Shown here: positions 937-59,486 of the stretch, one piece after another | Numbering within the stretch: the stretch's first letter is position 1 | Layout: each line of letters begins with the position of its first letter | Origin: Octopus vulgaris | Lineage: Eukaryota | Direction: 5' to 3' | Assembly (NCBI GenBank): GCA_951406725.2 | Contig: OX597824.1 | Coordinates: forward strand, 91,016,001-91,080,000 | Length of the DNA stretch: 64,000 bases | The notes under the pieces: model-generated | Seen by the model: only the letters and a program-made list of their open reading frames with translations | Databases searched by the model: none | Told to the model about the DNA's origin: nothing | Position numbers and translations under genes: made by a program

Positions 937-22906
<21,970 letters not shown>

Positions 22907-25917: not shown

Positions 25918-25979
<62 letters not shown>

Positions 25980-26449
25980 GGGAGAGTTCACGAAAAAACA
26001 AAAGACGAAGACAGGTGGTGTACAAAACAAACAGATGTATTAGTATAATGCTCAGGAACTGAAAAATTCTTTTACATTTTGAGCCTATGCTCTTCTACAG
26101 AAAGGAACACAGAAAGAAACAAGGGGAGAAAAAATGTGTGTAGTGGTTACCGATCTGAAGTAAATAGACACCTTTAATCTTCAACATCTTTTATTTGATA
26201 TTAATTGGTTGAAGGAGAGATTTTCTTCTAGCTGCTCATCCATAATACCCAAGCTTATGCAGATATGTAACACACGTTCTTGGACTAACTTGTTGTTTTG
26301 CAATGTCAGAAGCCTTCAAACAGGGTTCGTTTTCCACAATTCTCTTCAAACAGGAAGGCTTTCTTTCCGAGGGCCCAGGTCAGCCAGGATGAGAATCTGT
26401 TGATTCTTTTCCTTGGCTATTGAATTGCAACATAATTCTATTAACAGTA

Positions 26450-35969: not shown

Positions 35970-36135
35970 TTACTGCTACTACAGGTACTATTACTATTAG
36001 TATTAACAATCGTCTCGCTTAGTGCTTGTCAATGCAACAAAGAAAACAGCTTTCATTTAAAATTTCCAGCAACTGTCAACGCCCACATATCTTTCATCAG
36101 CATATAAAGATATTTTACAGCTGTTACCGTCAGCT

Positions 36136-36207
36136 TCCCAAGTGGTCTAGTGGTTAGGATTCCGCGCTCTCACCGCGGCGGCCGGGGTTCGATTCCCCGC
36201 TTGGGAA
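36136..36207 (+). tRNA. tRNA-Glu(CTC) copy 1
   Basis: 72-nt cloverleaf: acceptor TCCCAAG/CTTGGGA, anticodon stem CCGCG/CGCGG around CT-CTC-AC, T-arm CGGGG-TTCGATT-CCCCG; T-run downstream. Confidence 0.96.
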
Positions 36208-37040
36208 ATAGCTATTTTATCAAATTTTTTCTTACGTTAACTCTTTTAATTTTTTTTTTTTTTTACTTTGACATTATGATAAACGAATTTTCTTATCATC
36301 CTCCCATCAGTTACGGAGTAATTATATGGCTAAAATACTCTGAATAAATACTGTCATCAAAATGGTGGTAGAGATTTCGTTAGCAAGATTTTTCATGTGA
36401 GTCCGTGTTAAAACATTCTGTTGTATATTGTGGGGCGGTGGCCATTATGCTAACAATAAGCACACTTTCCTGATTCTCTTTCATTTCTTGATTCAGTTGG
36501 TTAACCATTTATCCTATAAACCAATCGATTCTTTTGATTAATGATTTGGTCAATCAATCAACGAATCAACGAGATTTATCAAAGTCCTTTTTGTCACACT
36601 TCGCAACTTACATCGATATAATGACCCTCCCGACATACAATGTTTCAACACAGGAGTTCAAATCAAGAATCTTTCAAACAAAATCAAGAACAAAAATTAA
36701 CAATTCATACCTCGAAATTCCAAGCACGACCATCCCCTACCATTTCTCCACCCTTCGTTACATTATCACTTGATGGTATCTTTATCTTTTACTTGTTAAA
36801 GTCATTGGATAGTGGCCATGCTGGAGCACCGCTTTGAAGGGGTTTCTGTCAGATAATATAACAGTTTTTATGTGTTTGAAGGCTGCTACTTATTCTATCA
36901 ATCGCATTTGCCGCAGCGCTATGTTAGGGGGACGTAGGTAAACTAACACACCTTGTCAAAACGTGGGGTGGGAATGGGGAGAGGGGGAAAACACGATCAC
37001 AAAGACACATACATATACTACGGGCTGCCTCACAGTTTCC

Positions 37041-37632
37041 TTATTTCTTTATTGCCCACAAGGAGCTAAACACAGTGAGGACAAACGGATTAGGTCGATT
37101 ACATCGACCCCAGTGCGTAATTGGTACTTAATTTATCGACCCCGAAAGGATGACAGGCAAAGTCGACCTCGGCGGAATTTGAACTCAGAACATAACGGCA
37201 GACTAAATACCTATTTCTATTTCTTTACTACCCACAAGGGGCAAAACACAGAGAGGACAAACAAGGACAGACAAACGGATTAAGTCGATTACATCAACCC
37301 CAATGCGTAACTGGTACTTATTTAATCGACCCCGAAAGGATGAAAGGCAAAGTCGACCTCAGCGGAATTTGAACTCAGAACGTAGCGGCAAACGAAATAC
37401 CTATTTCTTTACTACCCACAAGGGGCTAAACACAGAGGGGACAAACAAGGACAGACAAACGGATTAAGTCGATTATATCGACCCCAATGCGTAACTGGTA
37501 CTTATTTAATCGACCCCGAAAGGATGAAAGGCAAAGTCGACCTCAGCGGAATTTGAACTCATAACGTAGAGGCAGACGAAATACCGCTAAGCATTTCGCC
37601 CGGCGTGCTAACGTTTCTGCCAGCTCGCTGCC
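37041..37632 (-). mobile_element. SINE family 2 (head GGCAGCGAGCTGGCAGAA...GAGTTCAAATTCC), trimer, nested in a family 1 copy
   Basis: One A-box head + three tandem bodies of ~170-190 bp. Confidence 0.8.
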
Positions 37633-38557
37633 ATACAGTTTCCGTCAACGAAATTCACTCACAACGCATTGGTTAGCATGAGGCTATAGTCGTAGACACT
37701 TGCCCAAGCTACCGCTTAGAGAGACTCTACCCGAAACCACGTGCTCTCGAAGCGAACTTCTTAATCTTTAATCTAAGCCTTGCACGCAATTATTCGGATA
37801 ACTGTCCATAGAATCGATTTCCGTTCTGGGAGCTTATTAAGCGGATTGGGCTGCTGATTGGGTGGTTCGAAGTGCTTGTCACTTGCGATGGTGTTACCAA
37901 CATTAGTCATGCAACTGTAGCTAGCTTTGACGTTTTGTCGTTTAAATAATTTTTCTTTTTTTTTTTTTTGTATGATTAAATATATAACAACCTCGCTTGT
38001 TCTGCTGCGCTGGGGAAACAGAATTGATTTGCTTCTTACAAGATACTGCATAAAGACGATTAATGATTACTAAATCCACGAACTTCGTTAATCTTCTGAA
38101 ATATACAATATAAGACTTTAACGCCGATCTTTAGTTATTTCGAAAATATTCAAACTTAAATAATCATAATATACACAATCATGCGACTAGAATTACCGAC
38201 CTTGACTACGAAATTTGAACTCATTATCATTACTATTGTTTTAATACAATTTATTGCGATATCATTATCGTGACCTGACAGAATGGTTAAGACAACGGAC
38301 TAAATGCTTATCGGCATTTCGTCCGCCCTTATGTTTTGAGATCAAATTCCGCCAAAACTTTGCCTTTCATTCTTTCGAGATAAATAAAATAAGTACCAGT
38401 CATGCACTGCGGTCGATGTAATCGATTTAGATCTCCCCTGAAACTGCCGGCTCTTCGTCAAAATTTGAAGCCATTATTATCAGTCTCTGACGTTGGCACA
38501 AATGGTAATCCGCGGAGTAATAATTATTTTGTTCATTATCGATCGAGTTCGAAAGAC

Positions 38558-38982
38558 GGGGTGAGCTGGCAGAAACGTTAGCACGCCGGGCAAAATGCGT
38601 AGCCGTATTTCGTCTGCCACTACGTTCTGAGTTCAAATTCCGAGGTCGACTTTGCTCCGCCGAGGTCGACTTTGCCTTTCATCCTTTCGGGGTCGATAAA
38701 TAAATTAAGTACCAGTTACGCGCTGGGGTCGATGTAATCGACTTAATCCCTTTGTCTGTCCTTGTTTGTCCCCTCAGTGTTTAGCTCCTCGTGGGTAGTA
38801 AAGAAATAGGTATTTCGTCTGTCTTTACGTTCAGGGTTCAAATTCCGCCGAGGTCGACTTTGCCTTTCATCCTTTCGGGGTCGATAAATCAAGTACCAGT
38901 TGCATACTGAGGTCGATCTAATCGAGTGGCCACCCCCGTCCCCCAAAATTTCGGGCCTTTTGTCTAGAGTAGAAAAGATTAT
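38558..38982 (+). mobile_element. SINE family 2 dimer
   Basis: Head + body/tail A + body/tail B. Confidence 0.8.
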
Positions 38983-39860
38983 TGACCGAGTTTAAATCGT
39001 ACCAGCTGTCTTCGGGATTGCGTTTTTATCCCACTGTTGACGTCCTGGAAACATTTATTACGTTGAGGATCAAGGAGCCACCAATTGACCGTGATACATC
39101 GAAACCCAAGTAGTGTAGTGGGCAGAAACAATGACAGCAACAACAGCAGGGCTTTCCCCTTTGTATATTATATCAGAATAATGTTTGCATCCCTTTAGTG
39201 CCATGTCACCTAAGAGCCTTCCAGTTTGTAGAATTATTTTCTCTTTACAAGTCATTATATATTGTTCAATGCAAAGCAGAGGTTCAAAGTTCAATATTCT
39301 GTTGTAATTATAAAAATAATTAACGACAATTAATGCTAGAAACGCCATACTTTATTCCGAATGAGAAATTTGAAATACGTTCGTAACAATTTCGACAAGC
39401 GTTTGGTTGTTGGTCGAAAACTAGATCTGGCTGCGTGTTGAAACGAGATCTTAGTGTCATGTTTACCAAGCAAAGCGTCAGCAGTTTGTACGAACGTTCA
39501 CGAGCAAAAACACTTTCACTGTAGCTGAACATGTCCCACTTAGTCTACAAAACGTCAAAGCTAGCTACAATTGCATGACTATTGTTGCTTATCGTTTCTA
39601 TTTCATTTCCGTGCACGTTTATTTTTGTACATGTGAAGGCTCGTGGCTTAGTGGTAAGGAAATTCGGCTCACACTCGTAAGGCCGTGAGTTCGATTCCCG
39701 GCGGTGTGTTGTGTCCGTGTGCAAGTCACTTTATTTCACGTTGTGCCAGTTCACTTGGTTGGCAAAAATGAGGAGTACCAGCATTTCAAAGGACCACCCT
39801 TGTCACATTGTGTGTCATGTTCCTTCTTCCTCTACGACTATATTAAAAGTACGCGTGTCT

Positions 39861-39974
39861 GGCCGTATCACGTTGAAAGCACCGGTTCTCGTCCGATCAC
39901 CGAAGTTAAGCAACGTCGAGCCTAGTTAGTACTTAGATGGGTGTCCGCTTGGGAAACCAAGGAGCTGTAAGCGT
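39861..39974 (+). rRNA. 5S rRNA copy, 5'-clipped by ~6 nt, probably a pseudogene/retrocopy
   Basis: GGCCGTATCACGTTGAAAGCACCGGTTCTCGTCCGATCACCGAAGTTAAGCAACGTCGAGCCTAGTTAGTACTT...GCTGTAAGC matches invertebrate 5S. It lacks the 5' strand of helix I and an oligo-T terminator, and has substitutions in the internal promoter region. Confidence 0.88.
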
Positions 39975-39983
39975 CTCACACTT

Positions 39984-40155
39984 GGGCGCAGGAGTGGCTG
40001 TGTGGTAAGTAGCTTGCTTACCAACTACATGGTTCCGGGTTCAGTCCCACTGCGTGGCACCTTGGGTAAGTGTCTTCTACTATAGCCTCGGGCCAACCAA
40101 AGCCTTGTGAGTGGATTTGGTAGACGGAAACCGAAAGAAGCCCGTCATGTATATG

Positions 40156-40237
<82 letters not shown>

Positions 40238-40427
40238 TCCCCCTAATATCGCTTGACAACCGATGCTGGTGTGTTTACGTCCCCGTAACTTAGCGGTTCG
40301 GCAAAATAGACCAATAGAATAAGTACTAGGCTTACAAAGAATTTGTGATTGGTCGATTTGCTCGACTAAAGGCGGTGCTCCAGCATAGCCGCAGTCAAAT
40401 GACTGAAACAAGTAAAAGAGTAAAAGA
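39984..40427 (+). mobile_element. SINE family 1, full length, directly 3' of the 5S copy
   Basis: Homology to 22238-22646. Confidence 0.85.
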
Positions 40428-40829
40428 GGAGTGCTCAGCCACTTAGAGGTTAACTTCACAAGCAGGCTGTTGCGTTAACTGGATTATCTTGAACACTCAT
40501 CGTCGTAACCGACGGAGTAGCGGTTGAATTATATTTATACGTAGGGTTCCTGCAAATACTGTGTTTCAACGTAACTCTTGTTTTTTCTTAATCGCGTTTA
40601 ACCATGGCTACCACTGTCGGTCTCTACTTGGGAGTTGCGTAGAAAGCCAGATAACTGAAACTGGAGTTTGACTTTTCTTGCTTCCATGTGGGCGCAACAA
40701 AATATAGAATATGGCAATCTTTCGGAATACGTCTTAGAATTATCATTATCTTCGTCATTTAACGGCAACTGGATTAGAAACTTTACTTTATCCCTTCCAA
40801 ATATCCTTTTCATAAATCTATTATAGAAT

Positions 40830-41229
40830 ATTCTTTTCTGTTCTAGGTACAAGGATCGAAATTTGGCGGGAGGGGGGGCCAGTCGATTATATCGACCCCA
40901 GAGCATAACTGGTACTTAATTTATCGAAAGGTACGAAAGGATGAAAGGCAGAGTCGACCTCGGTGGAATTTGAACTCAGAACGTAATGACAGACGAAATA
41001 CCCATTTCTTTACTACCCACAAGAGGCTAAACATAGAGTGGACAAACAAGGACAGACAAACAGATTAAGTCGATTATATCGACTTATTTAATCGTACTTA
41101 TTTAATCGACCCTGAAAGGATGAAAGGCAAAGTCGACCTCGGCGGAATTTGAACTCAGAACGTAAAGACTGACGAAATACCGCTAAGCATTTCGCCCGGC
41201 GTACTAACCTTTCTGCCAGCTCGTCGCCT
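40830..41229 (-). mobile_element. SINE family 2 dimer
   Basis: Same architecture as 38558-38982; monomers at 1-195 (-), 6760-6980 (+), 47800-48013 (-). Confidence 0.8.
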
Positions 41230-41518
41230 TTCTTTTACAGAATATTGAACTTCAACTGGATTCAAAGTTTCACTGTTCTCTTTCCATTTAACTGTGAACA
41301 ATTTCTACCCAGACTACAAAAAAGTGGATTCTTCGTCTATATTGGAGGTATAGAAGAATGAAAAATGTCATGTACTCTATTTTCTTGTACTTTATCAAGT
41401 CTACCTTGGCTGAAGATGAAGTAACTTACCTTGCTTAACGTCAGCTTACAAACACAACGATTTACAAGCAGTTACAAATACTTCGGTATATAGTTATTTT
41501 TCGGTCTCGGTGTCAGCT

Positions 41519-41590
41519 TCCCAAGTGGTCTAGTGGTTAGGATTCCGCGCTCTCACCGCGGCGGCCGGGGTTCGATTCCCCGCTTGGGAA
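41519..41590 (+). tRNA. tRNA-Glu(CTC) copy 2
   Basis: Identical to copy 1; TTTT downstream. Confidence 0.96.
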
Positions 41591-41786
41591 CAATCTATTT
41601 TAACTTTTTCCCTTACATCCAGTATTCCGTTGATTTTCTTAAAAGTTTAAACCACGGGTTCTCAACCATTTTTTTCTTCTTCTATGGACCCATTTCATTA
41701 ATATTTTTATTCCGGTGGACTCCCCCCCCCCCCCCAAGCCATTCGATTTATAAAAATACTAATTTTATAGAGATGCAGCACGAATC

Positions 41787-41837
41787 TTTTTCAGTGAACA
41801 GGTCGCGGTCTCAAAGCGACGAAAATATTTTGGCAAA
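41787..41837 (+). ncRNA. minimal hammerhead-like motif, G3:C8 variant, second copy (family C)
   Basis: Same core; stem II GTCGC/GCGAC; helix I partly decayed. Confidence 0.5.
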
Positions 41838-42355
41838 TTATATTTAAAAGTTGAAGTGAATCTAACGGTTTTTTTGTGTGTTTCTTAAATGGCTTATAAA
41901 CACCTTCCACGCTGCAATTGTTTTCGTTCCAGCACAACGATCTCAGATCAGGTCACTTGCTATGCAAGTACATCTCCGAAATTTAACAGAAACTTCTTTT
42001 GAAGTCTGTAAAACGTCAGAGAATGAAATCCCAATGTTTATTGCAATACAGAGCAATACATACGTTCAAAGCAAAACTTATTCAGGCGCCCTCAAAATAC
42101 TAGTGTGGGTTCCCAATTTACTATTCTGTTGCGTGGACCCACAAAAATCATAAAGACCCCAGTTGAGAACCATTGGTTTAAACTGTTTCTCTCATTTAGC
42201 CATTAGCGAAGCAGCAACAGTTTAAATAACAGACTCGATTAATGCGCAGCTGTTACCATCAGGAGTATTATTACATATAAGAATATAATTAGTATATCTT
42301 AATTAATTTCGCTTACATTACCAGGTGATGGTATATGTATATATATATATATATG

Positions 42356-42673
42356 TAGAAAATAGTAAAAAGTGAAAAAACTACAGAAGGCTTGTTTTAA
42401 AAGGTTAAAAAATATATATTTAAGTCAATATGTCTGAAGAATATTATAAATTTATTTAGAACTCTTTTCAACATAAACATAACGATAACTCTTCTCAACA
42501 TAAACATAACGACGTAAGAAATTTGAAAAGCTAAACGCGAAACCGGTCTTTCTTCTAAACTATGTCATTGTAAGAAAAAAAATTATATTCTTCAGACATA
42601 TTGACTCAAATATATATTTTTTAACCTTTTAAAACAAGCCTTCTGTAGTTTTTTCACTTTTTACTATTTTCTA
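42356..42673. repeat. AT-rich foldback element, ~89-bp arms, between (TA)n tracts
   Basis: 42356-42444 vs 42585-42673. Confidence 0.85.
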
Positions 42674-42707
42674 TATATTCAACCACGTACTTTCACAAAC
42701 CAACTTT

Positions 42708-42807
<100 letters not shown>

Positions 42808-43519
42808 CATATATATATATGCATAATAATATATAAATATATGCATATATATATATACATATATGTACATACCTACATATATATGTATATATACATGCAT
42901 ATATGGGTACAGGACAACAAAAAAGACGTTGAACAGAATGAAAAACGAAAAAATAAAAACAAAAACATAGAAAACGAACTTTTTTCGAACAACGAAAAGC
43001 ACAAAGGGAGAAATGAAACATGCGACATAAAGAATATTCCCCTTCTTCAGTTGTCCCTGTTTCATCTACTCCGAGGTTACGAAGGCAAGGACAATATGCG
43101 ACTTCGTTGAAACAATCCTTTCCGCAAAGCAAATTAAATAAAATTTGGGATTTTTTGCGGAGTGTGAAAGTGGTAACAAGAACAGGACAGTGAGAACAAA
43201 CGGTGAGTGCTGTTAATTACCAAATGGCAAGATCAGCTTCGCTTGAGCAGGGGGAGATAATCACAAGATTCAAGAATTCTGGAAGTTAACAAGCTGTTAC
43301 GAAAAAGAACAGGTTCGTTATCTGGAAATAAGACAATCGGGGAGACGTATTTCTGGCTCAATAAGCGTCATTAGCACGACATTTATTCAACCCTATTTCC
43401 TGTTGCCAAACTTCTACAAAAAAAAGAACACATTTAAGTAAAAATAACTAAGAGTGTCCAGTGGAATGTATTTGAGCAACATAGACGAATATTTTGAACA
43501 ATAACTATATTAGAATCTT

Positions 43520-43895
43520 TACTCTACTCTTTTACTCTTTTACTCTTTTACTTGTTTCAGTCATTTGACTGCGGCCATGCTGGAGCACCACCTTTTAGTA
43601 CTTATTCTATCGGTCTCTTTTTGCCGAACCGCTAAGTGACGGGGACGTAAACACACCAGCATCGGTTGTCAAGCAATGCTAGGGGGACAAACACAGGCAC
43701 ACAAACACACACACATATACATATATATACATATATACGACAGGCTTCTTTCAGTTTCCGTCTACCAAATCCACTCACAAGGCATTGGTCGGCCCGGGGC
43801 TATAGCAGAAGACACTTGCCCAAGATGCCACGCAGTGGGACTGAACCCGCAACCGTGTGGTTGGTTAGCAAGCTACTTACCACACAGCCACTCCT
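43520..43895 (-). mobile_element. SINE family 1 with internal deletion
   Basis: Homology to 22238-22646. Confidence 0.8.
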
Positions 43896-44232
43896 ACGTT
43901 GAAGTTTATTAAAGATGATGGGGGGAAAAATACCCTTTCATAAATCTATCGCGGAATACTAAACTTCAACTGGATTCAAAGTGTCTCTGTCCACTTTCCA
44001 TTCAACTGTAAATAATTATATCTACTCTACCCACAAAGAAGCGGACCCTTCTTCCGGATTAGAAAGAAAAAAAATGATGTCATGTACTTTATTTTGCATG
44101 TACTTTATCACGTCAATCTCGACTGAACATGAAGTTACCTACTTTACTTAACGCCAACAGACAACCACAACTCTTTACAAGCACTTACAAATGTTTCTGT
44201 ATATATGAAATTTTCAGCGTTAGTCGACAGCT

Positions 44233-44304
44233 TCCCAAGTGGTCTAGTGGTTAGGATTCCGCGCTCTCACCGCGGCGGCCGGGGTTCGATTCCCCGCTTG
44301 GGAA
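44233..44304 (+). tRNA. tRNA-Glu(CTC) copy 3
   Basis: Identical to copy 1. Confidence 0.96.
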
Positions 44305-45521
44305 AAGCATCTTCTTTTGTGAGTGTGTGTGTTCTTTTCTTTTTCCTTTTGGGTGTATGATAATAACTGGTTTCTATATTTCGTTTTTGTATTCGATTTG
44401 CAAGATTCTTTATGTGAATTCGTATGTTGAAGCATATTTTATTGTGTTTGGGGAGAGCCATTCCCTATTAGTGCCTTACTAATTTAACACACTCACCACT
44501 CTGAGTTCCACTTATTTACTTATTTATTTATTTTTACTAAAACTAATGAATAAGTAAATGAATGGTTTCTTTATTTTCGCCTGAATTATGCGATAATCGT
44601 TCACTTTAAGCAAACTAAATTGATAGTGAAATGTACAAGGATTGCTCTCAAAATAGGGGAAAAAGATTTCGGATGTAAAAACGTAGTTGGGATTTCTAAA
44701 TATCATAATTGTTTTCTTGAAATTATATATTACCGTCGTATTACGAGTTGATGGTATAAACGTTATTATTCGAATAGATATTCATGAAATTCTGATGTGT
44801 CTGGGGAGAGTCATTCTCCGGTGAGTGTGTTAAATAATAAGGCACTAAATGAGAATGGCTCTCCCCAGACACAACAGAATATGCTTCAACACACGAACTC
44901 ATATAAAGAATCTTGCAAACCAAATCCAAAAACGAAATTTTAATGAAATTGGTTTCCAGTATTGGCTTTATGAAGTTATCAACGTGTCAGCTGCTACCTG
45001 TGACGATGGTCCTCGCATCAGTCATACAAGTGAAGCTATCTTTTACGTTTTGTCGGTTAAATAGCGTATATATGATTGAATATAATATTTTTGTATCATT
45101 CACGTATTCTGTCGTGCTTCCCCTCGCCTTTCAACATTACATGAAAGAAAACGATTCACTAAATTCTTTCTTTCAGTAAAAATAATTATTTATGGTTTAT
45201 TATAAATCATAGGATCAAAATTTAATATTATGTGTTATAGTTATAGAAAAGATTAACAATATTCACTGTCCGCTTTCCATTCAACTGTAAATAATTATTT
45301 CTACTCTCCCTACAAAGAAATGGACTCTTCTTCCAGACAGGAGCGAGGCAGTAAAAGATTGAAAAATGACGTCATGTACTTCCCTTTGTTTGTACTTTAT
45401 CATGGCTATGTCGACTGCAGATGAAATAATGCACCATACTTATCAACAAAACAAACACAATGATTGGCAAGAACTTACAAATACTTCAGTATATAGATAT
45501 TTTTCAGTGTCTTTACCATCT

Positions 45522-45593
45522 TCCCAAGTGGTCTAGTGGTTAGGATTCCGCGCTCTCACCGCGGCGGCCGGGGTTCGATTCCCCGCTTGGGAA
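45522..45593 (+). tRNA. tRNA-Glu(CTC) copy 4
   Basis: Identical to copy 1. Confidence 0.96.
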
Positions 45594-46816
45594 AAGCTTC
45601 TTCTTTTGTATGTGTGTGTATTTTTTTTTTTCCTTTTGGGTGTATGATAATAACTGGTTCCTTTATTTCGTTTTTGTATTCGATTTGCAAGATTCCTTAT
45701 GTAAATTTGTGTGTTGAAGCATATTTTATTGTGTCTGGGAAGGGTCATTCACTTTTAGTGCCTTACTAATTTAACACACTCACCAGTCTGAGTTCCACTC
45801 ATTCATTTATTTATTTATTTATTTATTTTTACTAAAACTAATAATTAAGTAAATGAATGGTTTCTTTATTTTCGCCTGAATTATGCGATAATCGTTCACT
45901 TTAAGCAAACTAAATTGATAGTGAAATGTACAAGGATTGCTCTCAAAATAGGGAAAAAGATTTCTGATGTAAAAACGTAGTTGGGATTTCTAAATATCAT
46001 AATTGTTTTCTTGAAATTATATATTATCGTCGTATTACGAGTTGATGGTATAAACGTTATTATTCGAATAGATATTCATGAAATTCTGATGTGTCTGGGG
46101 AGAGTCATTCTCCGGTGAGTGTGTGTTAAATAATAAGGCACTAAATGAGAATGGCTCTCCCCAGACACAACAGAATATGCTTCAACACACGAACTCATAT
46201 AAAGAATCTTGCAAACCAAATCCAAAAACGAAAAATTAATGAAATTGGTTTCCAGTATTGGCTTTATGAAGTTATCGACGTGTCAGCTGCTACCTGTGAC
46301 GATGGTCCTCGCATCAGTCATACAAGTGAAACTATCTTTTACGTTTTGTCGGTTAAATAGCGTATATATGATTGAATATAATATTTTGTATCATTCACGT
46401 ATTCTGTCGTGTTTCCCTTCGCCTTTCAACATTACATGAAAGAAAACGATTCACTAAATTCTTTCTTTAAGTAAAAATAATTATTTATGGTTTATTATAA
46501 ATCATAGGATCAAAATTTAATATTATATATTATAGTTATAGAAAAGATTAACAATATTCACTGTCCGCTTTCCATTCAACTGTAAATAATTATTTCTACT
46601 CTCCCTACATAGAAATGGACTCTTCTTCCAGACAGGAGGGAGGCAGTAAAAGATTGAAAAATGACGTCATGTACTTCCCTTTGCTTGTACTTTATCATGG
46701 CTATGTCGACTGCAGATGAAATAATGCACCAAACTTATCAACAAAACAAACACAATGAGTGGTAAGAACTTACAAATACTTCAATATATAGATATTTTTC
46801 AGTGTCTTTACCATCT

Positions 46817-46888
46817 TCCCAAGTGGTCTAGTGGTTAGGATTCCGCGCTCTCACCGCGGCGGCCGGGGATCGATTCCCCGCTTGGGAA
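46817..46888 (+). tRNA. tRNA-Glu(CTC) copy 5, T54A variant (possible pseudogene)
   Basis: As copy 1 except GGATCGA instead of GGTTCGA (A at 46869). Confidence 0.85.
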
Positions 46889-47214
46889 ACACTTTCTTTT
46901 TATTACACTTGTGAGATAATAACTGATTTTTTTTTCTTTTGTTCTCGCGACGGTAGTTTATGGTTATCTCACACCCCATTAAAAAATTGGGTTTATGAAA
47001 AATATCGGTGCCTTTGGTAATCTCCCTCAACTAAAAAATATTGTTTAACTCTCAATAAAACAAAGAAAAAAAATGAAAGAATTGAGGACGCCAAACATCA
47101 ACAATGTGTTGAAGTATTGAATCAAAAGGACCCAACCCTTTTAATCCCATCTCTTGTCGTCACATAAACTCAGGACATAACCCAATTTTTAATGGCAACT
47201 TTTTAATGGGGTGA

Positions 47215-47416
47215 GGTGGTAAGTAGCTTGTTCACCAACCACATGGTTCCGGGTTCAGTCCCACTGCGTGGCACTTTGGGCAAGTGTCTTCTACTATAGC
47301 CTCGGGCCGACCAAAGCCTTGTGAGTGGATTTGGTAGACAGAAACTGAAAGAAGTCCGTCGTATATATATGTGTGTATATATATATATATATACATGTGT
47401 GTGTGTGTGTGTGTGT

Positions 47417-47452
<36 letters not shown>

Positions 47453-47780
47453 CTGTGTGTCTGTGTGTATGTGTGTGTGTGTATGTGTTTGTGTATCAGT
47501 GTTTGTCCCCCCCAACATCGCTTAACAACCGATGCTGGTATGTTTACGTCCATGTAACTCAGCGGTTCGGCAAAAGAGACCGATAGAAACACAGACACAC
47601 AAACACATACACACACATATACGACGGGCTTCTTTCAGTTTCCATCTACCAAATCCACTGACAAGGCTTTGGTCGGCCCAAGGCTATAGTAGAAGACACT
47701 TGCCCAAGGTGCCACGCAGTGGGACTGAACCCGCAACCATGTGGTTCGTAAGCAACCTACTTACCACACAGCCACTCCTG
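47215..47780. mobile_element. two SINE family 1 copies fused tail-to-tail (+ 47215-47587, - 47590-47780)
   Basis: Homology to 22238-22646 in both orientations. Confidence 0.75.
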
Positions 47781-48305
47781 CTGTCAGAGGACCTCACGAT
47801 TCTTTTCTACTCTAGGCACAAGGCTCGAAATTTTGGGGGAGGTGGCCAGTCGATTAGATCGACCCAGTACGCAACTGGTACTTAATTTATCAACCCAGAA
47901 AGGGATGAAAGGTAAAGTAGACCTGGGCGGAATTTGAACTCAGAACGTAAAGACAGACGAAATACCGCTAAGTATTTCGCCCCGGCGAGATAACGATTCT
48001 GCCAGCTCGTAGCCATTGTTTCAAATTTTGGTGCAAATCTAATATTTTTTAGAGGAATTGGTAAGTCGATTATATCGACCTAGTAACGAATTTGTACATT
48101 CAGTACTCAGTTGGTACTTGTTTTATCGCCCCCGAAAGGTGAAAGTAATGTAAGCTTCGGTGGAATTTGAACTCACAACGTAAAGAGCCAGATAAGTTTG
48201 CTAATTCCCTACCTTTGTAACTTATTCAATAGATTAACCTAATTAGTCACGGGAAGAAAAAGTACTTCCTCATTTATATTTATTTTACAGTTGTTACCGT
48301 CAGCT

Positions 48306-48377
48306 TCCCAAGTAGTCTAGTGGTTAGGATTCCGCGCTCTCACCGCGGCGGCCGGGGTTCGATTCCCCGCTTGGGAA
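48306..48377 (+). tRNA. tRNA-Glu(CTC) copy 6, G9A variant
   Basis: As copy 1 except A at 48314; the A-box still fits TRG. Confidence 0.92.
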
Positions 48378-48384
48378 ATTGCTC

Positions 48385-48583
48385 TTTTATTCTTTTATTT
48401 GTTTCAGTCATTTAACTGCAGCCATGCTGGAATACCGCCTGTAGTTGAGCAAATCAACCCCAGTACTTATTCTATCGGTTTCTTTTGCCGAACCACTAAG
48501 TTACAGGACGTAGACTCTCCATGATCGGTTGTCAAGAGATGTCGTGGGACACAAACATACATACACACACACACACACACATA

Positions 48584-48644
<61 letters not shown>

Positions 48645-48647
48645 ATA

Positions 48648-48724
<77 letters not shown>

Positions 48725-48864
48725 GCTTCTTTCAGTTTCCGTCTACCAAGTCTTTGGTTGGCCCGAGGCTATAGTAGAAGACACTTGTCCAAGGTGCCAC
48801 GCAGTGGGACTGAACACGGAACCATGTGGTTCATAAGCAAGCTACATACTACACAGCCACTCCT
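48385..48864 (-). mobile_element. SINE family 1 immediately 3' of tRNA copy 6
   Basis: Homology to 22238-22646. Confidence 0.8.
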
Positions 48865-49119
48865 TGTTAATTCTTTATTTAGTTTGACGATAACCGATTT
48901 TTATAATTCTCGGATCGGTTATCTGTTAGTTGTTCACTCTAAGTGCTCAGTTTAATCAGATATTGTTATCGAAATGTTGTAAAAGGTTATTGCCTGTAAT
49001 TAGATAATCAACATACTTGATGGTAAACGCGATGCTCCAGCATGGCCGCAGTCAAATGACTGAAAGAAATAAAAGAATAGTTGTTCGTCTCTCAAGTGGT
49101 TCTTTCCTACCCGGGAAAT

Positions 49120-49340
49120 ACTCTTTTACTCTTTTACTTGTTTCAGTTATTTTGACTGCGGCCATGCTGGAACACCGCCTTTAATCGAGCAACTCGACCC
49201 CGGGACTTATTCTTTTGTAAGCCCAGTACTTATTCTATCGGTCTCTTTTGCCGAACCGCTAAGTAACGGGGACATAAACACACCAGCATCGGTTGTCAAG
49301 CAATGCTAGGGGGACAAACACGGACATACAAACACACACA

Positions 49341-49381
<41 letters not shown>

Positions 49382-49535
49382 GACGGGCTTCTTTTCAGTT
49401 TCCGTCTACCAAATCCACTCACAAGGCTTTGGTCGGCCCGAGGCTATAGTAGAAGACACTTGCCCAAGGTTCCACGCAGTGGGACTGAACCCGGAACCAT
49501 GTGGTTGGTAAACAAGCTACTTACCACAGAGCCAC
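49120..49535 (-). mobile_element. SINE family 1
   Basis: Homology to 22238-22646. Confidence 0.85.
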
Positions 49536-49858
49536 TAACGTATCTATTCTGTCTTGTTACGCTCTGGCAGATTCGAACTCGAACATGCTGATTGCTGCTG
49601 TATTTAGTCTTCGGAGAACATCTCCTTTTTTTGTCGATGTGTGTTCACAACACATCCGATTCGTTGATGTAAAGAGACTTTGAGGTACTGCCGTGTTTCA
49701 ACCTCATTGAGTGTCTCGTCAGGTAATGTTGTTCCGGATCACCGTATCTGTACGAGATTAACGGCTCTTGTTTATAGAACATCAGTCAACAGTATATTTG
49801 CTGAAGCGATAACAATTCATTAGAAGCGCGTAAAACATCGGGAATCCAAACAATAACG

Positions 49859-49952
<94 letters not shown>

Positions 49953-50364
49953 CAACAACAACAACAACAGCAACATCGAAAAATACCTTAGGAATGAGAA
50001 CCCAGGTTCGAAATTTCCCCGAGGCACTTGCTGAAGGCTGGAGGGTATATCAGCCGAAATGTTGTGTTAACAACAAACAAGATGAGGACATTACGGAGAT
50101 GTACTTGCTTAGCAAGTGATTTGATCTGAGATCGTGTGCTGAAACGAAAACAGTTGCAGCGTGGAAGGTGTTTGTAAGCCCTTTAAGAAACACACAAAAG
50201 CCGTTCTTAAATGGCTTACAAACACCTTCCAAGATGAGGACAAATATCCACCAAATGTAAATAAAGTACATAATTCCTCATCTCTTAAATATAGAACAGA
50301 ATAACGTATCTATTTGTTGGTTTCATTGATCAGGTTGCAACTTCCAAAGAAGAGATGTACTTTG

Positions 50365-50525
50365 GGCAAGTAGCTTGCTTACCAATCACATAGTGCGGGT
50401 TCAATCCCACTGCGTGGCACCTTGGGCAAGTGTCTTCTACTATAGCCTCGGGCCGACCAAAGCCTTGTCAGTGGATTTGGTAGATGGAAACGGAAAGAAG
50501 CCCGTCGTATATATATATATATATA

Positions 50526-50581
<56 letters not shown>

Positions 50582-50775
50582 CGTTTGTTCCCCTCCATCG
50601 CTTGACAACCGATGCTGGTGTGTTTATGTCCTCGAAATCTAGCGGTTCGGCAAAAAGACCCCGATAGAATAAGTACTTGGCTTACAAAGAATAAGTCCTG
50701 GGGTCGATTCGTTCGACTAAAAGGCGGTGCTCCAGCATGGCTGCAGCCAAATGACTGAAACAAGTAAAAGAATAA
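50365..50775 (+). mobile_element. SINE family 1
   Basis: Homology to 22238-22646. Confidence 0.8.
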
Positions 50776-51230
50776 AACAAATCTCAAACTGTCACTACTT
50801 CACCTTTAACCGAAAATGAATAATTCTTCCATATTTTGGAAAAAAAACCCCCTAAACTTAGAAACCTACGAAATATTTCTATTCGAAGACAGAAGACAGC
50901 AGAAGCCAAAATAAGGAATATATACGCAGTTAAATATAGAAGTGTAAAATATAATTTGTTACATAATCTCTATAATAAAACATGATACTGAATGCAATAA
51001 TTCTCCGTTTGAACTTTACTAATTACATATATGTGTATGTGTGTGTGTGTGTGTGTGTGGTAGAAATCTACGGATGCACAAACGAACAAAACGGAAAAAA
51101 TGAAACAAATTTGGACGACTTATTCAGAAACACCCTCGAGTGGGGAACGGTTCTCAAAAATAACCCCCAATTGTTTTCTCCCGAAATTCCTGTGTCTTCG
51201 GAATCTACATAGTCCGAGGTATATTTGTAG

Positions 51231-51482
51231 GGTACAACTGTTTAAGAAGAGTGGTCCCGGTGCGCGCACTCGCGTACTCTCGCATCCGCGCTAGCTAGTC
51301 GTGACTAGTCGATCCTACAATGACTACCTAGCAAAGTAAATAAAATACAAAATAAATAATTTTTTACACAAAGTAAATAAAACACAAAAACACAAAGTAA
51401 GGATCGACTAGTCACGGCTAGCTAGTGCGGATGCGCGAGTTCGCGAGTGCGCACACCGGGACCACTCTTCTTAAATAGTACC
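51231..51482. mobile_element. Mutator-like MITE with ~85-bp TIRs and 9-bp TSD
   Basis: GGTAC...GTACC ends, long GC-rich inverted arms, TATTTGTAG on both sides (51222-51230, 51483-51491). Confidence 0.85.
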
Positions 51483-51897
51483 TATTTGTAGAGAATTTTA
51501 TTTAAAAATATCTATTTTCTTGAAAGTTGAGAGGAATAGAAGTGAACTCCGGTGAATTTTCCGAAATACTTTTCCCCAAAAATTTTATGTATTCGGAATC
51601 TACATGGTATAACAGAAATTCGTAGAAAATTTCATTAAAAGACATCTATTTTTCTGAAAGTTATGATCATCCAAAGTCGGGAGGGAGGTGCAGAAATCTC
51701 TAGTTACACCCGAAATGTTTCTACTCGAAGGCAGGCAACAGGCAAGAGGGAAAGTAGCGTTATGTAGGTTGTTTTGCTTCTGAGAGGCTGACTCAAAATA
51801 AAATTGCTTTGCTTGACATCAATACACAGGCACGGCTGTTCACAAGACTATTAACACGTTCGACTATATTCTTATTTTGCTGTATCTGTATTCAGCA

Positions 51898-51969
51898 TCC
51901 CAAGTGGTCTAGTGGTTAGGATTCCGCGCTCTCACCGCGGCGGCCGGGGTTCGATTCCCCGCTTGGGAA
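51898..51969 (+). tRNA. tRNA-Glu(CTC) copy 7
   Basis: Identical to copy 1; TTTT downstream. Confidence 0.96.
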
Positions 51970-52211: not shown

Positions 52212-52769
52212 ATATTTTGGTCAGTTTAATCGCCACATTTGAGATATTTTATTATCTCAAATATCGAACCCCGCAGTACTTAACTTTCATTTGTTTGGCT
52301 AAGCCTGGTATTTTATCGGTCTCTTTTGCCGAACTGCTAATTAACGGGACCGTAAACACACCAACTCGAATACTCCGGAAGATGTTCGAAAAATAAGAGG
52401 TATTACCTTAGTTCACTGGTAGTGAACAGCTGACACCGTAGTACATCTCCAGTGTTAGAAGCTGTGCAAAGGCAACAATAATAATAATAACAATAATTAT
52501 TATTTCTTTATTGCCCACAGGGGACTAAACACAGAGGTCGACTTTGCCTTTCATCCTTTCGGGGTCGATAAATTAAGTACCAGCTACGCACTGGGGTCGA
52601 TGTAATCGACTTAATCCGTTTGTCTGTCTGTCCTTGTTTGTCCCCTCTGTGTTTAGCCCCTTGTGGGTAGTAAAGAAAGATATATATATAGTTAATCCAA
52701 ACATGAACTGAATCTAAATTTTGCTGAACTTATACATACATATATATATATATATATATATTTGTGCGC

Positions 52770-54881: not shown

Positions 54882-56515
54882 CTGTATATCTATGTATTTG
54901 TGTGTAATTTATGTATATATATATGTATAAATATATGTATACAACAGGTAAGTTCGCGCATTAACATAATCAGTCCAGTGAGCCGAGGAGCGTAAATTAA
55001 TTAAAAATAACCCCGTGGTGAGAGAAAATAATTGTGAACTTAATGATTAATTTTAGCAAAAGTAGATAAGGGAGGCAACTGTAGAATTTTAATTAATAAA
55101 AATGATAAAAATAGAATGTGGGTAACATAATCGGGAATGGGACTCATCTTGATAAAAGAGAGGTAACTTCGGACATATTTCACTCTTATTAGAACTCCTC
55201 AGTAAAGTAGATTCCTTATCTATACTGACGGAGGTCATGGATACTAGTACACACATACAAGCAGTCACACGGGTGTACACACACACGTACACACACACAC
55301 AACTCTTTCATAATATTCTCACCTTCACCTACTCTTTGAAGCAAACATACATCTACACACACACACACACATGCATACACACACACACACACAGAGAAAG
55401 CATGTATACACGCAGACATAAAGCCAATTCTCAGACAGATGAAAAGAAGACTTTGAAGCGATCGTTAGGGAACACACCGAGTCCCTGGAAAGTGGCGGAC
55501 AGTGAAGAAAGGGCTTTGTCTAATAAACAACCGATCGATTGTTTAACCAACACATTAAACAAACGATCGATTAGCTAATTGGTTTAGATATTTAACTATT
55601 TGATCAACAATAAAGAAGTGGAACTGAACCTGTGCGTGTGTTACTATTATTGGCGTAATGATTCCCCTATACCACAATAAATCGCTAAATCCACAAGTTT
55701 CTTTTCTTTTTAGTCTCTCTCTCTATTTATTTCCTCATGTTCCTTCCAGCTGAAGAGCGTTGGCTCGAAATGTAAAAGACTTCCCCACTTTCCTGAACGT
55801 CAAACTAATACACCTGCTTGTTGTTGATTCACATGTCTTCGTCATAATATGTGACCGCGTGTGTATCGTTGGCGATTTTTTTCCCTCCGTCTTCCCTTCT
55901 TTGGATCTTTCCTTTCCCTATGTTTCTGACGAAGAGCTCCGCTCGAAACGTTAAATCCTCCTTCTTTCTTTCCTTTCCTGAGCGTCCAATAACACTATAC
56001 TTGCTCCACGTCCTCGCGTTGTGTTTTCTCTTTGTTCATGTTTGGATTAACTATATATATATCTTTCTTTACTACCCACAAGGGGCTAAACAAGGACAGA
56101 CAGACAAACGGATTAAGTCGATTACATCGACCCCAGTGCGTAGCTGGTACTTAATTTATCGACTCCGAAAGAATGAAAGGCAAAGTCGACCTCTGTGTTT
56201 AGTCCCCTGTGGGCAATAAAGAAATAATAATTATTGTTATTATCATTATTGTTGCCTTTGCACAGCTTCTAACACTGGAGATGTACTACAGTGTCAGCTG
56301 TTCACTACCAGTGAACTAAGGTAACACTTCTTATTTTTCGAACCTCTTCCGGAGTATTCGAGCTGGTATGTTTACGTTCCCGTTAATTAGCTGTTCGGCA
56401 AAAGAGACCGATAAAATACCAGGCTTAGCCAAACAAATGAAAGTTAAGTACTGCGGGGTTCGACATTTGAGATAATAAAATATCTCAAATGTGGCGATTA
56501 AACTGACCAAAATAT
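52212..56515. repeat. inverted duplication, ~490-bp arms (52212-52708 and 56034-56515)
   Basis: Reverse-complement match that includes non-SINE sequence. Confidence 0.88.
55922..55956 (+). ncRNA. minimal hammerhead ribozyme-like motif, intact core
   Basis: GTTT-CTGACGA-A-GAGC(TCC)GCTC-GAA-ACGT-T-AAAT. Confidence 0.65.
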
Positions 56516-56975: not shown

Positions 56976-57148
56976 ATAGCTCATTAATTAATTTTATTCA
57001 TTTATTTAATTATTTATTCTTATTTCGTTGCTGGATACTTATATTCCGGTTGGGTCTGGTCTTTACTGCACTGCTTCAAGTTGTGTTCTGGTTTTGATTT
57101 TTATTTATTTTTTTTTGCATAGTTATTCGTGTGTTTATGAGTGTACGT

Positions 57149-57195
<47 letters not shown>

Positions 57196-57448
57196 TATGT
57201 GTATGTGTGTGTGCGTGCGTGTGTTTGGGTGTGGTCTTTACTACCCTGCTTGAAGTTAGGTTCCGTTTGGGTTTTTTTTTTTGCATAATTATTTGGGTTT
57301 TTTTGTGTGTGTGTGTGTTCGTGTTTGTCCCTTTCTTTCAACATCTGTCAAACCATTTATTTTTTTCCTAACCAGTCACCTTGCTTGACCGCTAAATCCA
57401 CAAGTTTTTTGTTTTTTAAATTCTCTCTCTGTTCATTTCCTCAAATTC

Positions 57449-57484
57449 CTTTCTGATGAAGAGCAAAGGCTCGAAACGTAAAAG
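57449..57484 (+). ncRNA. minimal type-I hammerhead ribozyme-like motif, intact core (family A)
   Basis: CTTT-CTGATGA-A-GAGC(AAAG)GCTC-GAA-ACGT-A-AAAG. Confidence 0.7.
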
Positions 57485-59486
57485 ACTTTCTCACCATCCC
57501 AAGCGTTAAACTAATATACCTGTTTGTTGTTTATACACCTACCTTCGTATTTTGTTTTTCTATAAATTTAAACTATATATATATATATGTGTGTATGCAT
57601 GTATACATACATACATACATACATACATACATACATACATACATACATACATACATACATACATACATACATACATACATACAGTGAACGATGCGTGTAT
57701 GTTGGTGGTTTTTGGCTGTGCTGTTGTTTTATTCTGAAGCACCTTGGTTCTCCTTCTTTCAAGAAACTCCTTCGTTTTCGTTCCTTTGAAGTTTCTAAAA
57801 GTGTATCTGCTTTCTTCATTGAAGCCTGACGTGTGTTGCGGTGTTAATTGGTAGGTGGTCCCAGGAATGTTGGCGAATTGTTTGCCAGGTGGTTGCGGTG
57901 GTGGTTAGGGGTCTGTAGCAGGATGGGATGTCGGCAGAAGAGTTCTGCTCAGATTGGGGATGGAGATACAGAAGTCGGTGCGTACGTGCGTGCTCAAGTC
58001 TGTGCTTGTGTGTGAAACTGTATGTGTGCATGTATGTGAAGGTGTGAGTGTGTGCATGTGAAGTCTGTGTGTATGTGTGTGTAAAAGTGCGCAGGTATGC
58101 GTGTGTGTGTGTGTGTGTGTGTGTGTATGCATGAAGGTATATGTGTATGTATGTGAAGATTTGTGTATGTGAAGAGTGTGTGTGTGGTTGTTTGTAAAGA
58201 AGTGTATGGATGGATGTGTGTGTACGTATGCATGCATGCATGTATGTATGTATGTATGTATTATGTATGTATGTATATATGGATGTGTGTGTATGTATGT
58301 GTGTGTATGTATATATGACTGGCTGGCTAGAAGGATGTGTGTGTGTGTACATATATGTATAAGTGAAGGTGTGTGTGTGAAAGTGTGCATGTATGCGTGT
58401 GTGTGTGTGTGTGTATGAAGACGTGTATGTATGGTGTATATGTGCGCGCGCGCGCGTGTGTGTGTGTGAAGGTGTAAGTACGTGTGTGTTTGTGGTTGTA
58501 TGTAAAGGTGTGTATGTGTACGTTTATGTATGCGTGTGTCTGCGTGTGCGAAGGTGTGTGTACGTAGTTGTTTGTGGACGCGTGACGCTACGAACGTGTG
58601 TCTGAGGAGTGCGTATGTGTATGCTTGCGTGTATATGTGTGTGTGAGCGCGCACCTGTACGAAGGTGTGTATGTGAAGGTGTGGACTGATTAAGGAGTTT
58701 AGCTGTTAAGCAATTATGTTTACCTTGTCTATTACCTGTATCTTTGGGAAATCAGGAAGTATCGAGTGCCAAGCCCAAACATCGGTGGTGTTCTAAAGAG
58801 TCTTAAAATGTGGAGGTCGGTGTCTGTAGTCTTGTTTGATGGTGGCGGTTTGTGTGTGTGCATGTATGTATGTATGTATGTGTATGTATGTATGTATGTA
58901 TGTATGTATGTATGTGTGTGTGTATGTATGTATGGATGGATGGATGTGTGTATGTATATATGTTTGTATGTATGTATGTATGTATGTATGTATGTATGTA
59001 TGTATATGTGTGTATGTATGTATATATGGATGGATGTGTGTGTATACATATATGTATAAGTGAAGGTGTCTGTGTGTGTATTCATATATGTATATGTGTG
59101 TGTATGTATGTATGGATGGATGGATGGGTGGGTGGGTGGATGGATGGGTGTGTGTATGCGTGTGTATACATATTTATATGAGTGTGTGTGAGTTCTCTTC
59201 TATTCTTAATTATTTGGAGTTTTCATCTAAGGAAGGAGTTGGTTTTCGACCAAGATACAAAGTTCCATCATTGAAATGCAGAAAACAAGGACAAATTCAT
59301 ATTCTAAACTTGAGAAAAATCTTGCAGAATTTCACTGTTCCACTTACGGATTGTATTTATAATGTATGTACCTGTTGGAAGATTTCTTTTCCTGAAAACT
59401 CAAGCTTATCCAAGCTTAGGCATTTACTTACAAAGCTAAGAGCACCAATTATTATCGTTATAAATGAATTTGTAATGAGGTACCAT

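What the first reader, a model, noticed from the sequence alone, without database searches (positions are those of the whole stretch)
57385..57580. Repeat family A carries a minimal hammerhead ribozyme with an intact core
Seen: CTTT-CTGATGA-A-GAGC(AAAG)GCTC-GAA-ACGT-A-AAAG at 57449-57484, i.e. helix I, the CUGANGA core, stem II, GAAA, a palindromic ACGU in place of helix III, and a GUA cleavage triplet. The same ~190-bp repeat, mostly ending at (TA)n, recurs at 12170-12385 (+), 13835-14015 (-), 25980-26155 (-) and 55680-55845 (+). Those cores are decayed, partly by CpG loss (TCGAAACGTA to TCAAAACATA), and stem II loops vary (ATAG, AAAG, GTTG) while GAGC/GCTC is kept. Established: Penelope-like elements carry minimal type-I hammerheads with palindromic helix III that cleave as dimers, and an extra A after A9 is tolerated in a natural viroid hammerhead. 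Inference: a non-autonomous, ribozyme-bearing Penelope/retrozyme-type family, probably unannotated here.
Basis: partly seen in the sequence, partly recalled or inferred. Interest (0 to 1): 0.8.

Follow-up and report, generated by a model that had tools for sequence, protein, structure and literature searches.

The report
Octopus Penelope-type hammerhead repeat, variant core
An abundant ~200-base octopus repeat carries the small hammerhead RNA motif already known from Penelope-like jumping genes; this copy has the textbook core, but most of its family appears to have U instead of A at a normally fixed core position, and self-cutting is untested.

Summary
The motif at 57449-57484 is real and matches the published minimal hammerhead (min-HHR) of metazoan Penelope-like elements (PLEs) point for point. 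It sits in a ~200-bp octopus repeat with five copies in the window, four of them ending at (TA)n. Two further min-HHR families (B, C) also occur here.

In contigs of four public runs laid on this copy, 86-97% of depth reads T at core position 6, as window copies 13k and 26k do. The family's dominant core is therefore CUGUNGA, and this canonical copy is a minority form. Position 7 and loop II vary while the rest of the motif stays almost fixed, so the fold looks conserved with U6. I found no natural A6U hammerhead in print, but Lünse 2017 was not readable.

No PLE coding remnant was found in the window and no genome was held. The same motif lies downstream of PLE-type RT/endonuclease sequence in 5 of 119 metagenome loci. 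Most likely this is a non-autonomous pLTR-derived element, and this lone copy is probably inert. Known kind, possibly a new core variant.

The parts
57449..57484 (+). Minimal type I hammerhead motif, canonical core in this copy; predicted cut 57480/57481
   Evidence: consensus in PMC4209133
57456..57456 (+). Core position 6: A in this copy, T in 86-97% of family contig depth
   Evidence: T also in window copies 13k and 26k
57356..57575 (+). Family A unit. Multi-copy depth starts at about 57356-57374, a pyrimidine-rich tract precedes the motif, and (TA)n starts 95 nt after the predicted cut
55677..55845 (+). Family A copy, core decayed (C at position 6), 3'-truncated, directly followed by family B
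12166..12378 (+). Family A copy with A6 but both CpGs lost; sense strand in an EML6 intron
13834..14033 (-). Family A copy with U6/U7 core, closest to the majority form (93% over 100 nt); antisense in the same EML6 intron
25975..26156 (-). Family A copy with U6/A7 core, CpG-decayed
55846..56056 (+).
11513..11655 (-). Family C min-HHR-like copy with a different 5-bp stem II and helix I, partly decayed; further pieces at 13272-13393 (-) and 49981-50090 (+)
   Evidence: read by eye; did not pass the strict descriptor

Best explanation
The repeat is likely a non-autonomous, ~200-bp derivative of a Penelope-like element's terminal repeat (pLTR) that carries a minimal hammerhead motif and would be copied in trans by a PLE reverse transcriptase/GIY-YIG protein into (TA)n. 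Shown: the motif, five dispersed copies with similar 5' starts, (TA)n 3' ends, thousands of distinct related contigs, one head-to-tail junction, and U6 as the dominant core letter. Inferred: the PLE protein nicks AT-rich DNA and starts reverse transcription about 95 nt downstream of the ribozyme cut site, which fixes the 3' end. Inferred: the hammerhead can cut only as a dimer paired through ACGU in tandem transcripts, probably with protein help. Inferred: cleavage matters little for spread, which would explain why a lineage with a weakened U6 core amplified most while keeping the fold. This lone copy, about 9% from the majority form, is probably inert.
For: All sequence features of the published min-HHR consensus are met; an X. 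tropicalis family in that alignment has the same ACGU palindrome and GUA triplet. The same core and stem II pattern gave 120 matches in 119 metagenome loci, 41 flank clusters. Of these, 36 of 41 continue with U-H and 20 of 41 form helix I of 3 bp or more, neither being part of the query. In 5 of 119 loci (L006, L014, L027, L049, L094; three clusters) PLE-type coding sequence lies upstream on the same strand. L027 has RVT_1 at E 5e-8 and a weak GIY-YIG match. 3' ends lie 95 nt (A), 100 nt (B) and about 82 nt (C) past the predicted cut; the anole PLE starts reverse transcription 85-92 nt past its cut and prefers AT-rich targets (PMC11167929). That PLE's hammerhead needs the protein to cut, and dead mutants still insert in vitro. 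6309 and 6181 contigs were laid in two DNA runs; both show a joint from 57569 back to 57413 with 34 letters resembling the unit's start. PLEs fill 6.83% of O. vulgaris; the window is Octopus.
Against: No PLE RT or endonuclease remnant was found in the window (best tblastn E 0.075, in an EML6 exon; blank for 57683-57904). No genome was held, so no octopus autonomous partner was seen. The metagenome loci share only the 26-46 nt motif with family A, not its flanks. No stem covariation exists within family A. The intended double hammerhead scores -8.9 kcal/mol against -14.5 for the best dimer fold, which keeps stem II and the ACGU pairing but not helix I. The U6 share is depth-weighted over assembly contigs, which overcount young high-copy lineages, so the share by copy number is unknown.
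Confidence: 0.8

Rival explanations
1. The copies are solo pLTR stubs left by 5'-truncated insertions of an autonomous PLE, not an independently replicating short element.
For: Cervera 2014 found most min-HHRs as single motifs, probably from truncated PLEs. Fixed 3' ends with (TA)n fit this.
Against: All five copies start within about 30 nt of one another, multi-copy depth falls to single-copy level at 57343-57355, and a direct head-to-tail junction exists. Random truncation would give ragged 5' ends.
Confidence: 0.3
2. Family A is an active non-LTR retrozyme: tandem arrays are transcribed, cut by dimeric hammerheads into ~200-nt monomers and circularised, and U6 is a working natural core variant.
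For: Unit size fits; one tandem junction in two DNA runs of two studies. Position 7 has three alleles and loop II varies, while only 2 of 29 constrained motif positions show a second letter against 3 of 7 free positions (Fisher p 0.04, post hoc). Mussel retrozymes make circRNAs (PMC7229834).
Against: All window copies are solo. Changes at position 6 cut activity in Mg2+ (A6C: PMC3088659, PMC7151607). Only 1 of 9 Xenopus retrozyme dimers cleaved in vitro (bioRxiv 2026.07.22.740005).
Confidence: 0.2
3. The family's ribozyme is dead. U6 was a neutral hitch-hiker in a successful master copy, and A6 here is an older minority lineage or a private back-change.
For: Majority U6. Cleavage is dispensable for insertion in vitro in the anole PLE. 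Few master lineages could produce the variation pattern by chance; the positions are not independent.
Against: Variation inside the motif falls on the positions a hammerhead leaves free. Two of five window copies share the same A6 core, which is unlikely as private change (p 0.008-0.15 for shares of 3-14%), so an A6 lineage probably exists.
Confidence: 0.4
4. The motif is a chance match inside an ordinary SINE-like repeat.
For: The monomer fold is no more stable than shuffles (z -0.01). Rfam gives no hammerhead match at 57340-57572 (4 unrelated weak hits).
Against: 1 of 200 shuffles gave such a hit. Three families in one window keep the same architecture with different stems. No tRNA head is called in the element.
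Confidence: 0.03

Closest known systems
Minimal hammerheads (min-HHR) in pLTRs of metazoan Penelope-like elements (Cervera & De la Pena 2014, PMC4209133; Lünse et al. 2017, seen only as a reference cited in PMC6765202)
   Same: Type I layout, short helix I, extra nucleotide between 9 and 10.1, G10.1-C11.1, palindromic 15.2-16.2 with no loop III, U-rich upstream tract, mostly solo dispersed copies, several families per genome.
   Different: The family majority has U at position 6. The representative motifs I read in Fig. S3 (supplement parts 1-2) all have A6, although their descriptor required it; their core variant is U3-A8. No cephalopod is in that set. No linked ORF is shown here.
Non-LTR retrozymes (Cervera & De la Pena 2020, PMC7229834; Li et al. 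bioRxiv 10.64898/2026.07.22.740005)
   Same: Short non-coding unit with a type I hammerhead, likely pLTR-derived and non-autonomous; monomers dispersed.
   Different: No tandem array in the window and only one junction seen elsewhere; minimal rather than canonical hammerhead; no circRNA evidence.
Poseidon PLE of Anolis carolinensis (PAc; Frangieh et al. 2024, PMC11167929)
   Same: 3' end about 85-100 nt past the hammerhead cut; AT-rich insertion target.
   Different: PAc is autonomous with an RT and GIY-YIG ORF; nothing coding was found for family A.
Natural A6C hammerhead of phage Bcep176 (PMC3088659, PMC7151607)
   Same: Natural change at core position 6.
   Different: C rather than U, a single phage sequence rather than a high-copy family; A6C favours Mn2+ over Mg2+, and U6 is untested.

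Membership tests
Metazoan PLE min-HHR | CUGANGA core (this copy) | tested here: met
   57453-57459
Metazoan PLE min-HHR | CUGANGA core (family majority) | tested here: not met
   T at position 6 in 86-97% of depth in 4 of 4 runs and in 2 of 5 window copies
Metazoan PLE min-HHR | Unpaired nucleotide between 9 and 10.1, and G10.1-C11.1 closing stem II | tested here: met
   57460, 57461/57472; no second letter at 10% or more
Metazoan PLE min-HHR | GAAA, palindromic 15.2-16.2 without loop III, NUH triplet | tested here: met
   57473-57480; only the CpG change at 57478 is listed, 1-12%
Metazoan PLE min-HHR | Short helix I and U-rich upstream tract | tested here: met
Metazoan PLE min-HHR | Lies in the pLTR of a PLE with RT and GIY-YIG ORF | tested here: inconclusive
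   None in the window; no genome held; same motif follows PLE-type coding sequence in 5 of 119 metagenome loci
Metazoan PLE min-HHR | Self-cleavage as a dimer | not testable with these tools
   Needs an in vitro assay; only contigs, no raw RNA reads, were offered
Non-LTR retrozyme | Two or more consecutive tandem units with complete hammerheads | tested here: inconclusive
   Not met in the window; one head-to-tail joint in runs X1 and X4, cores of that locus not seen
Non-LTR retrozyme | Expressed as linear and circular monomer RNA | not testable with these tools
   No listed holder on record as RNA
Autonomous EN+ PLE | RT plus GIY-YIG ORF between pLTRs | tested here: not met
tRNA- or 5S-derived SINE | Small-RNA-derived head | tested here: not met
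   No ARAGORN or Rfam call in the element

The most novel reading that the evidence does not exclude
Octopus carries a very high-copy PLE-derived element whose dominant lineage fixed A6U in the hammerhead core yet keeps the fold under selection. It is either the first natural, working U6 hammerhead (protein-assisted or metal-tuned) or a hammerhead turned into a non-catalytic docking structure for the PLE protein. Canonical A6 and U6 sister lineages in one genome form a natural experiment on what the PLE hammerhead is for.
Probability: 0.3. Interest if true: 0.6.

Novelty: new variant of a known kind. Interest (0 to 1): 0.33.

Why it matters
A min-HHR in a PLE-type repeat is ordinary and was described in 2014. 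What adds value is the family-level core. The role of PLE hammerheads is open: cleavage is slow, protein-assisted and dispensable for insertion in vitro in the one PLE tested. A lineage that amplified to thousands of variants with U at a position thought essential, beside A6 relatives, allows a direct test of whether catalysis or only the fold is selected. Descriptor searches that require CUGANGA would miss most of this family, so counts of such motifs in cephalopods would be too low.

Tried and rejected
Whole-genome consensus and search for an autonomous partner: no genome held.

Rfam: no hammerhead family among the 150 listed of 254 window hits (104 not shown), and none among the 4 hits at 57340-57572. 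Rfam evidently does not model this minimal form, so this is no evidence against.

Viral contigs: 0 matches for A6 and U6 patterns. Prokaryote genomes: 5 U6-pattern matches, all in GC-rich bacterial DNA and none followed by U-H, so treated as chance.

Expression: no RNA holder listed. Two runs guessed to be RNA hold family contigs, and one X19 contig matches this locus exactly over 57333-57484, but contigs show no ends or strand and it passes the cut site by only 4 letters. No pile-up of ends was reported. None of this counts for or against cleavage.

57200-57332 was skipped as repeat, so whether the upstream flank belongs to the element is open. The 57683-57904 (-) frame as a PLE remnant: no Pfam match and no homolog.

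Folding energies do not single out the motif. In one search the two family C rows were misaligned, so their cells mean nothing.

Literature for A6U: searches 'hammerhead'+'A6U', 'core variant'/'A6C' (34), U6 heptamers (56), core variants (57), octopus or cephalopod plus ribozyme (12, 55) listed no natural A6U hammerhead and no cephalopod min-HHR study. I judged these from listings, and the library lacks most subscription papers. Lünse 2017 was not held.

Full report
Setting. The window is Octopus DNA: an exon translation is 100% identical to the EML6 cluster named for Octopus sinensis, and EML6 exons map from about 997 to 19566 on the + strand. No whole genome was held.

Observation. The motif is at 57449-57484 as described. 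A structural descriptor gave 2 hits in the window, 57453 and 55926; 1 of 200 local dinucleotide shuffles gave a hit of equal quality. Family A has five copies, 77-81% identical to this one, and a profile found no sixth. Four end at (TA)n, 95 nt after the predicted cut in this copy. All start within about 30 nt of one another, before a pyrimidine-rich tract. Copies 12k and 13k lie in one EML6 intron; 26k, 55.7k and 57k lie beyond the last matched exon. The monomer folds into helix I and stem II without helix III and is no more stable than shuffles. In two-strand folding of the 36-nt motif the best structure pairs the two ACGU palindromes and keeps stem II but not helix I (-14.5 kcal/mol); the full double hammerhead scores -8.9.

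More families. Family B (55846-56056, +) is a distant relative with an intact canonical motif and (TA)n 100 nt after its cut. Family C (11513-11655 -, 13272-13393 -, 49981-50090 +) shows the same layout with a different 5-bp stem II and helix I, read by eye from partly decayed copies.

The family-level test. Contigs of four public runs were laid on 57200-57574 at 80% likeness: 6309, 6181, 1425 and 35 contigs (two runs guessed DNA, two guessed RNA). At 57456, core position 6, T makes up 86.3, 89.1, 97.4 and 95.9% of depth. Position 7 has three alleles (A 22-46%, C 13-19%, rest T) and loop II varies. Only 2 of 29 constrained motif positions show a second letter at 10% or more (position 6 and the CpG at 57478), against 3 of 7 free positions and 16 of 62 tail positions (Fisher p 0.04 and 0.047; post hoc and not independent). 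Caveats: depth over assembly contigs overcounts young high-copy lineages and is not copy number, and letters cannot be phased. The non-T remainder (11-14% in the DNA runs) and the two A6 window copies suggest a minor or older A6 lineage. Within family A no stem pair covaries. Multi-copy depth begins at about 57356-57374 and is single-copy at 57343-57355. Both DNA runs show a joint from 57569 back to 57413 with 34 letters like the unit's start, i.e. one head-to-tail tandem locus.

Link to PLEs. No RT or endonuclease remnant was found in the window. They form 41 flank clusters; 36 continue with U-H and 20 form helix I of 3 bp or more, features not in the query. Using four ORFs from these loci as queries, PLE-type coding sequence lies upstream on the same strand in 5 of 119 loci from three clusters; L014 and L049 look like one locus sampled twice. 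L027 has RVT_1 at E 5e-8 and GIY-YIG at E 5e-4, below the curated cut-off. These loci share only the motif with family A, so they support the motif type, not membership of the octopus family.

Literature. Cervera & De la Pena 2014 (PMC4209133; main text parts 1-2 of 4 and supplement file 2 parts 1-2 of 3 read; file 1 not searchable) define the min-HHR, report mostly solo copies, no monomer cleavage and low dimer cleavage, and list gastropod and bivalve but no cephalopod examples. Frangieh 2024 (PMC11167929; parts 1-2 of 4 and passages) shows for an anole PLE an AT-rich target, reverse transcription starting 111-118 nt into the ORF with the cut at +26, protein-assisted cleavage, and insertion by catalytically dead RNA. 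Perreault 2011 (passages) and Naghdi 2020 (parts 1-2 of 4) show natural A6C with low Mg2+ activity and Mn2+ preference. Craig 2021 (passages) notes microsatellite bias for Neptune and Naiad PLEs, Naiads lacking hammerheads. Cervera 2020 (passages) and Li 2026 (parts 1-3 of 5) define non-LTR retrozymes as tandem and likely pLTR-derived; 1 of 9 dimers cleaved. Bonar 2026 (part 1 of 3, passages, supplement search) gives 190 PLE families and 6.83% of O. vulgaris and does not mention ribozymes. Lünse 2017 was not held; I saw only its citation in a review, and it or its supplement may already hold U6 variants. Searches that found no natural A6U.

Mechanism. Shown: anatomy, copy structure, majority U6, one tandem junction. 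Inferred from PLE biology: a ~200-nt non-coding RNA is bound by a PLE protein, which nicks (TA)n and reverse-transcribes from about 95 nt past the hammerhead. The hammerhead could cut only when two copies pair through ACGU, as in tandem transcripts. Since cleavage is dispensable in vitro for one PLE, a U6 lineage could amplify with weak or no catalysis while the fold is kept. This copy is solo and about 9% from the majority form (92 of 101), so it is probably inert. The nearest intact partner on the same strand is family B, 1.5 kb upstream; a mixed dimer would keep the palindrome and 3 bp of each helix I, but no transcript spanning both is known.

Verdict. The catch is correct and the class is known. 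Earlier scan notes report the same kind in many other genomes (unchecked leads). The family-level U6 core is the one point that may be new, and it needs an assembly count and a cleavage assay. Interest 0.33.

Noticed in passing
window 55846-56056 (+): Family B, a second repeat with an intact canonical minimal hammerhead, directly behind a truncated family A copy and 1.5 kb upstream of the finding on the same strand; a mixed A/B dimer is sequence-compatible.
   Followed up: partly
window 11513-11655 (-), 13272-13393 (-), 49981-50090 (+), 50230-50297 (+): Family C, a third minimal-hammerhead repeat with a different stem II and helix I; the 50k copy is split by another repeat.
   Followed up: partly
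window 52677-52708 (-) and 56034-56065 (+): The last 32 bases of family B, with its short (TA)n, are identical at two places and run into the same SINE-like end, suggesting a composite that moves together or targeting of that SINE end.
   Followed up: no
window 12166-12378 (+) and 13834-14033 (-): Two family A copies form an inverted pair in one EML6 intron and could make double-stranded pre-mRNA, a possible ADAR substrate.
   Followed up: no
window 36135-51969 (+): Seven tRNA-Glu(CTC) genes on one strand, several about 1.3 kb apart, with a 5S rRNA gene at 39855-39973 among them.
   Followed up: no
window 997-19566 (+): 3' half of the EML6 gene, 15 exon matches to the O. sinensis protein.
   Followed up: yes
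window 57050-57168 and 57225-57328: A 72% identical local duplication just upstream of the finding, separated by (TG)n; whether it belongs to the element is open.
   Followed up: partly
window 57683-58010: Segment unique in the window between microsatellite tracts just 3' of the finding; its minus-strand frame had no Pfam match or homolog.
   Followed up: partly
window 51258-51456: Long GC-rich inverted repeat with an AT-rich middle, MITE-like; seen only as a spurious Rfam miRNA match.
   Followed up: no
window 57385-57452: A branch-point-like pentamer followed by a polypyrimidine tract precedes the motif in several copies, recalling the pLTR intron of Drosophila virilis Penelope that ends at helix I.
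   Followed up: no
L027 1376-3627 (-): A PLE-type RT, zinc-finger and GIY-YIG region with a frameshift, about 680 nt upstream of the same hammerhead type, in a metagenome contig.
   Followed up: partly
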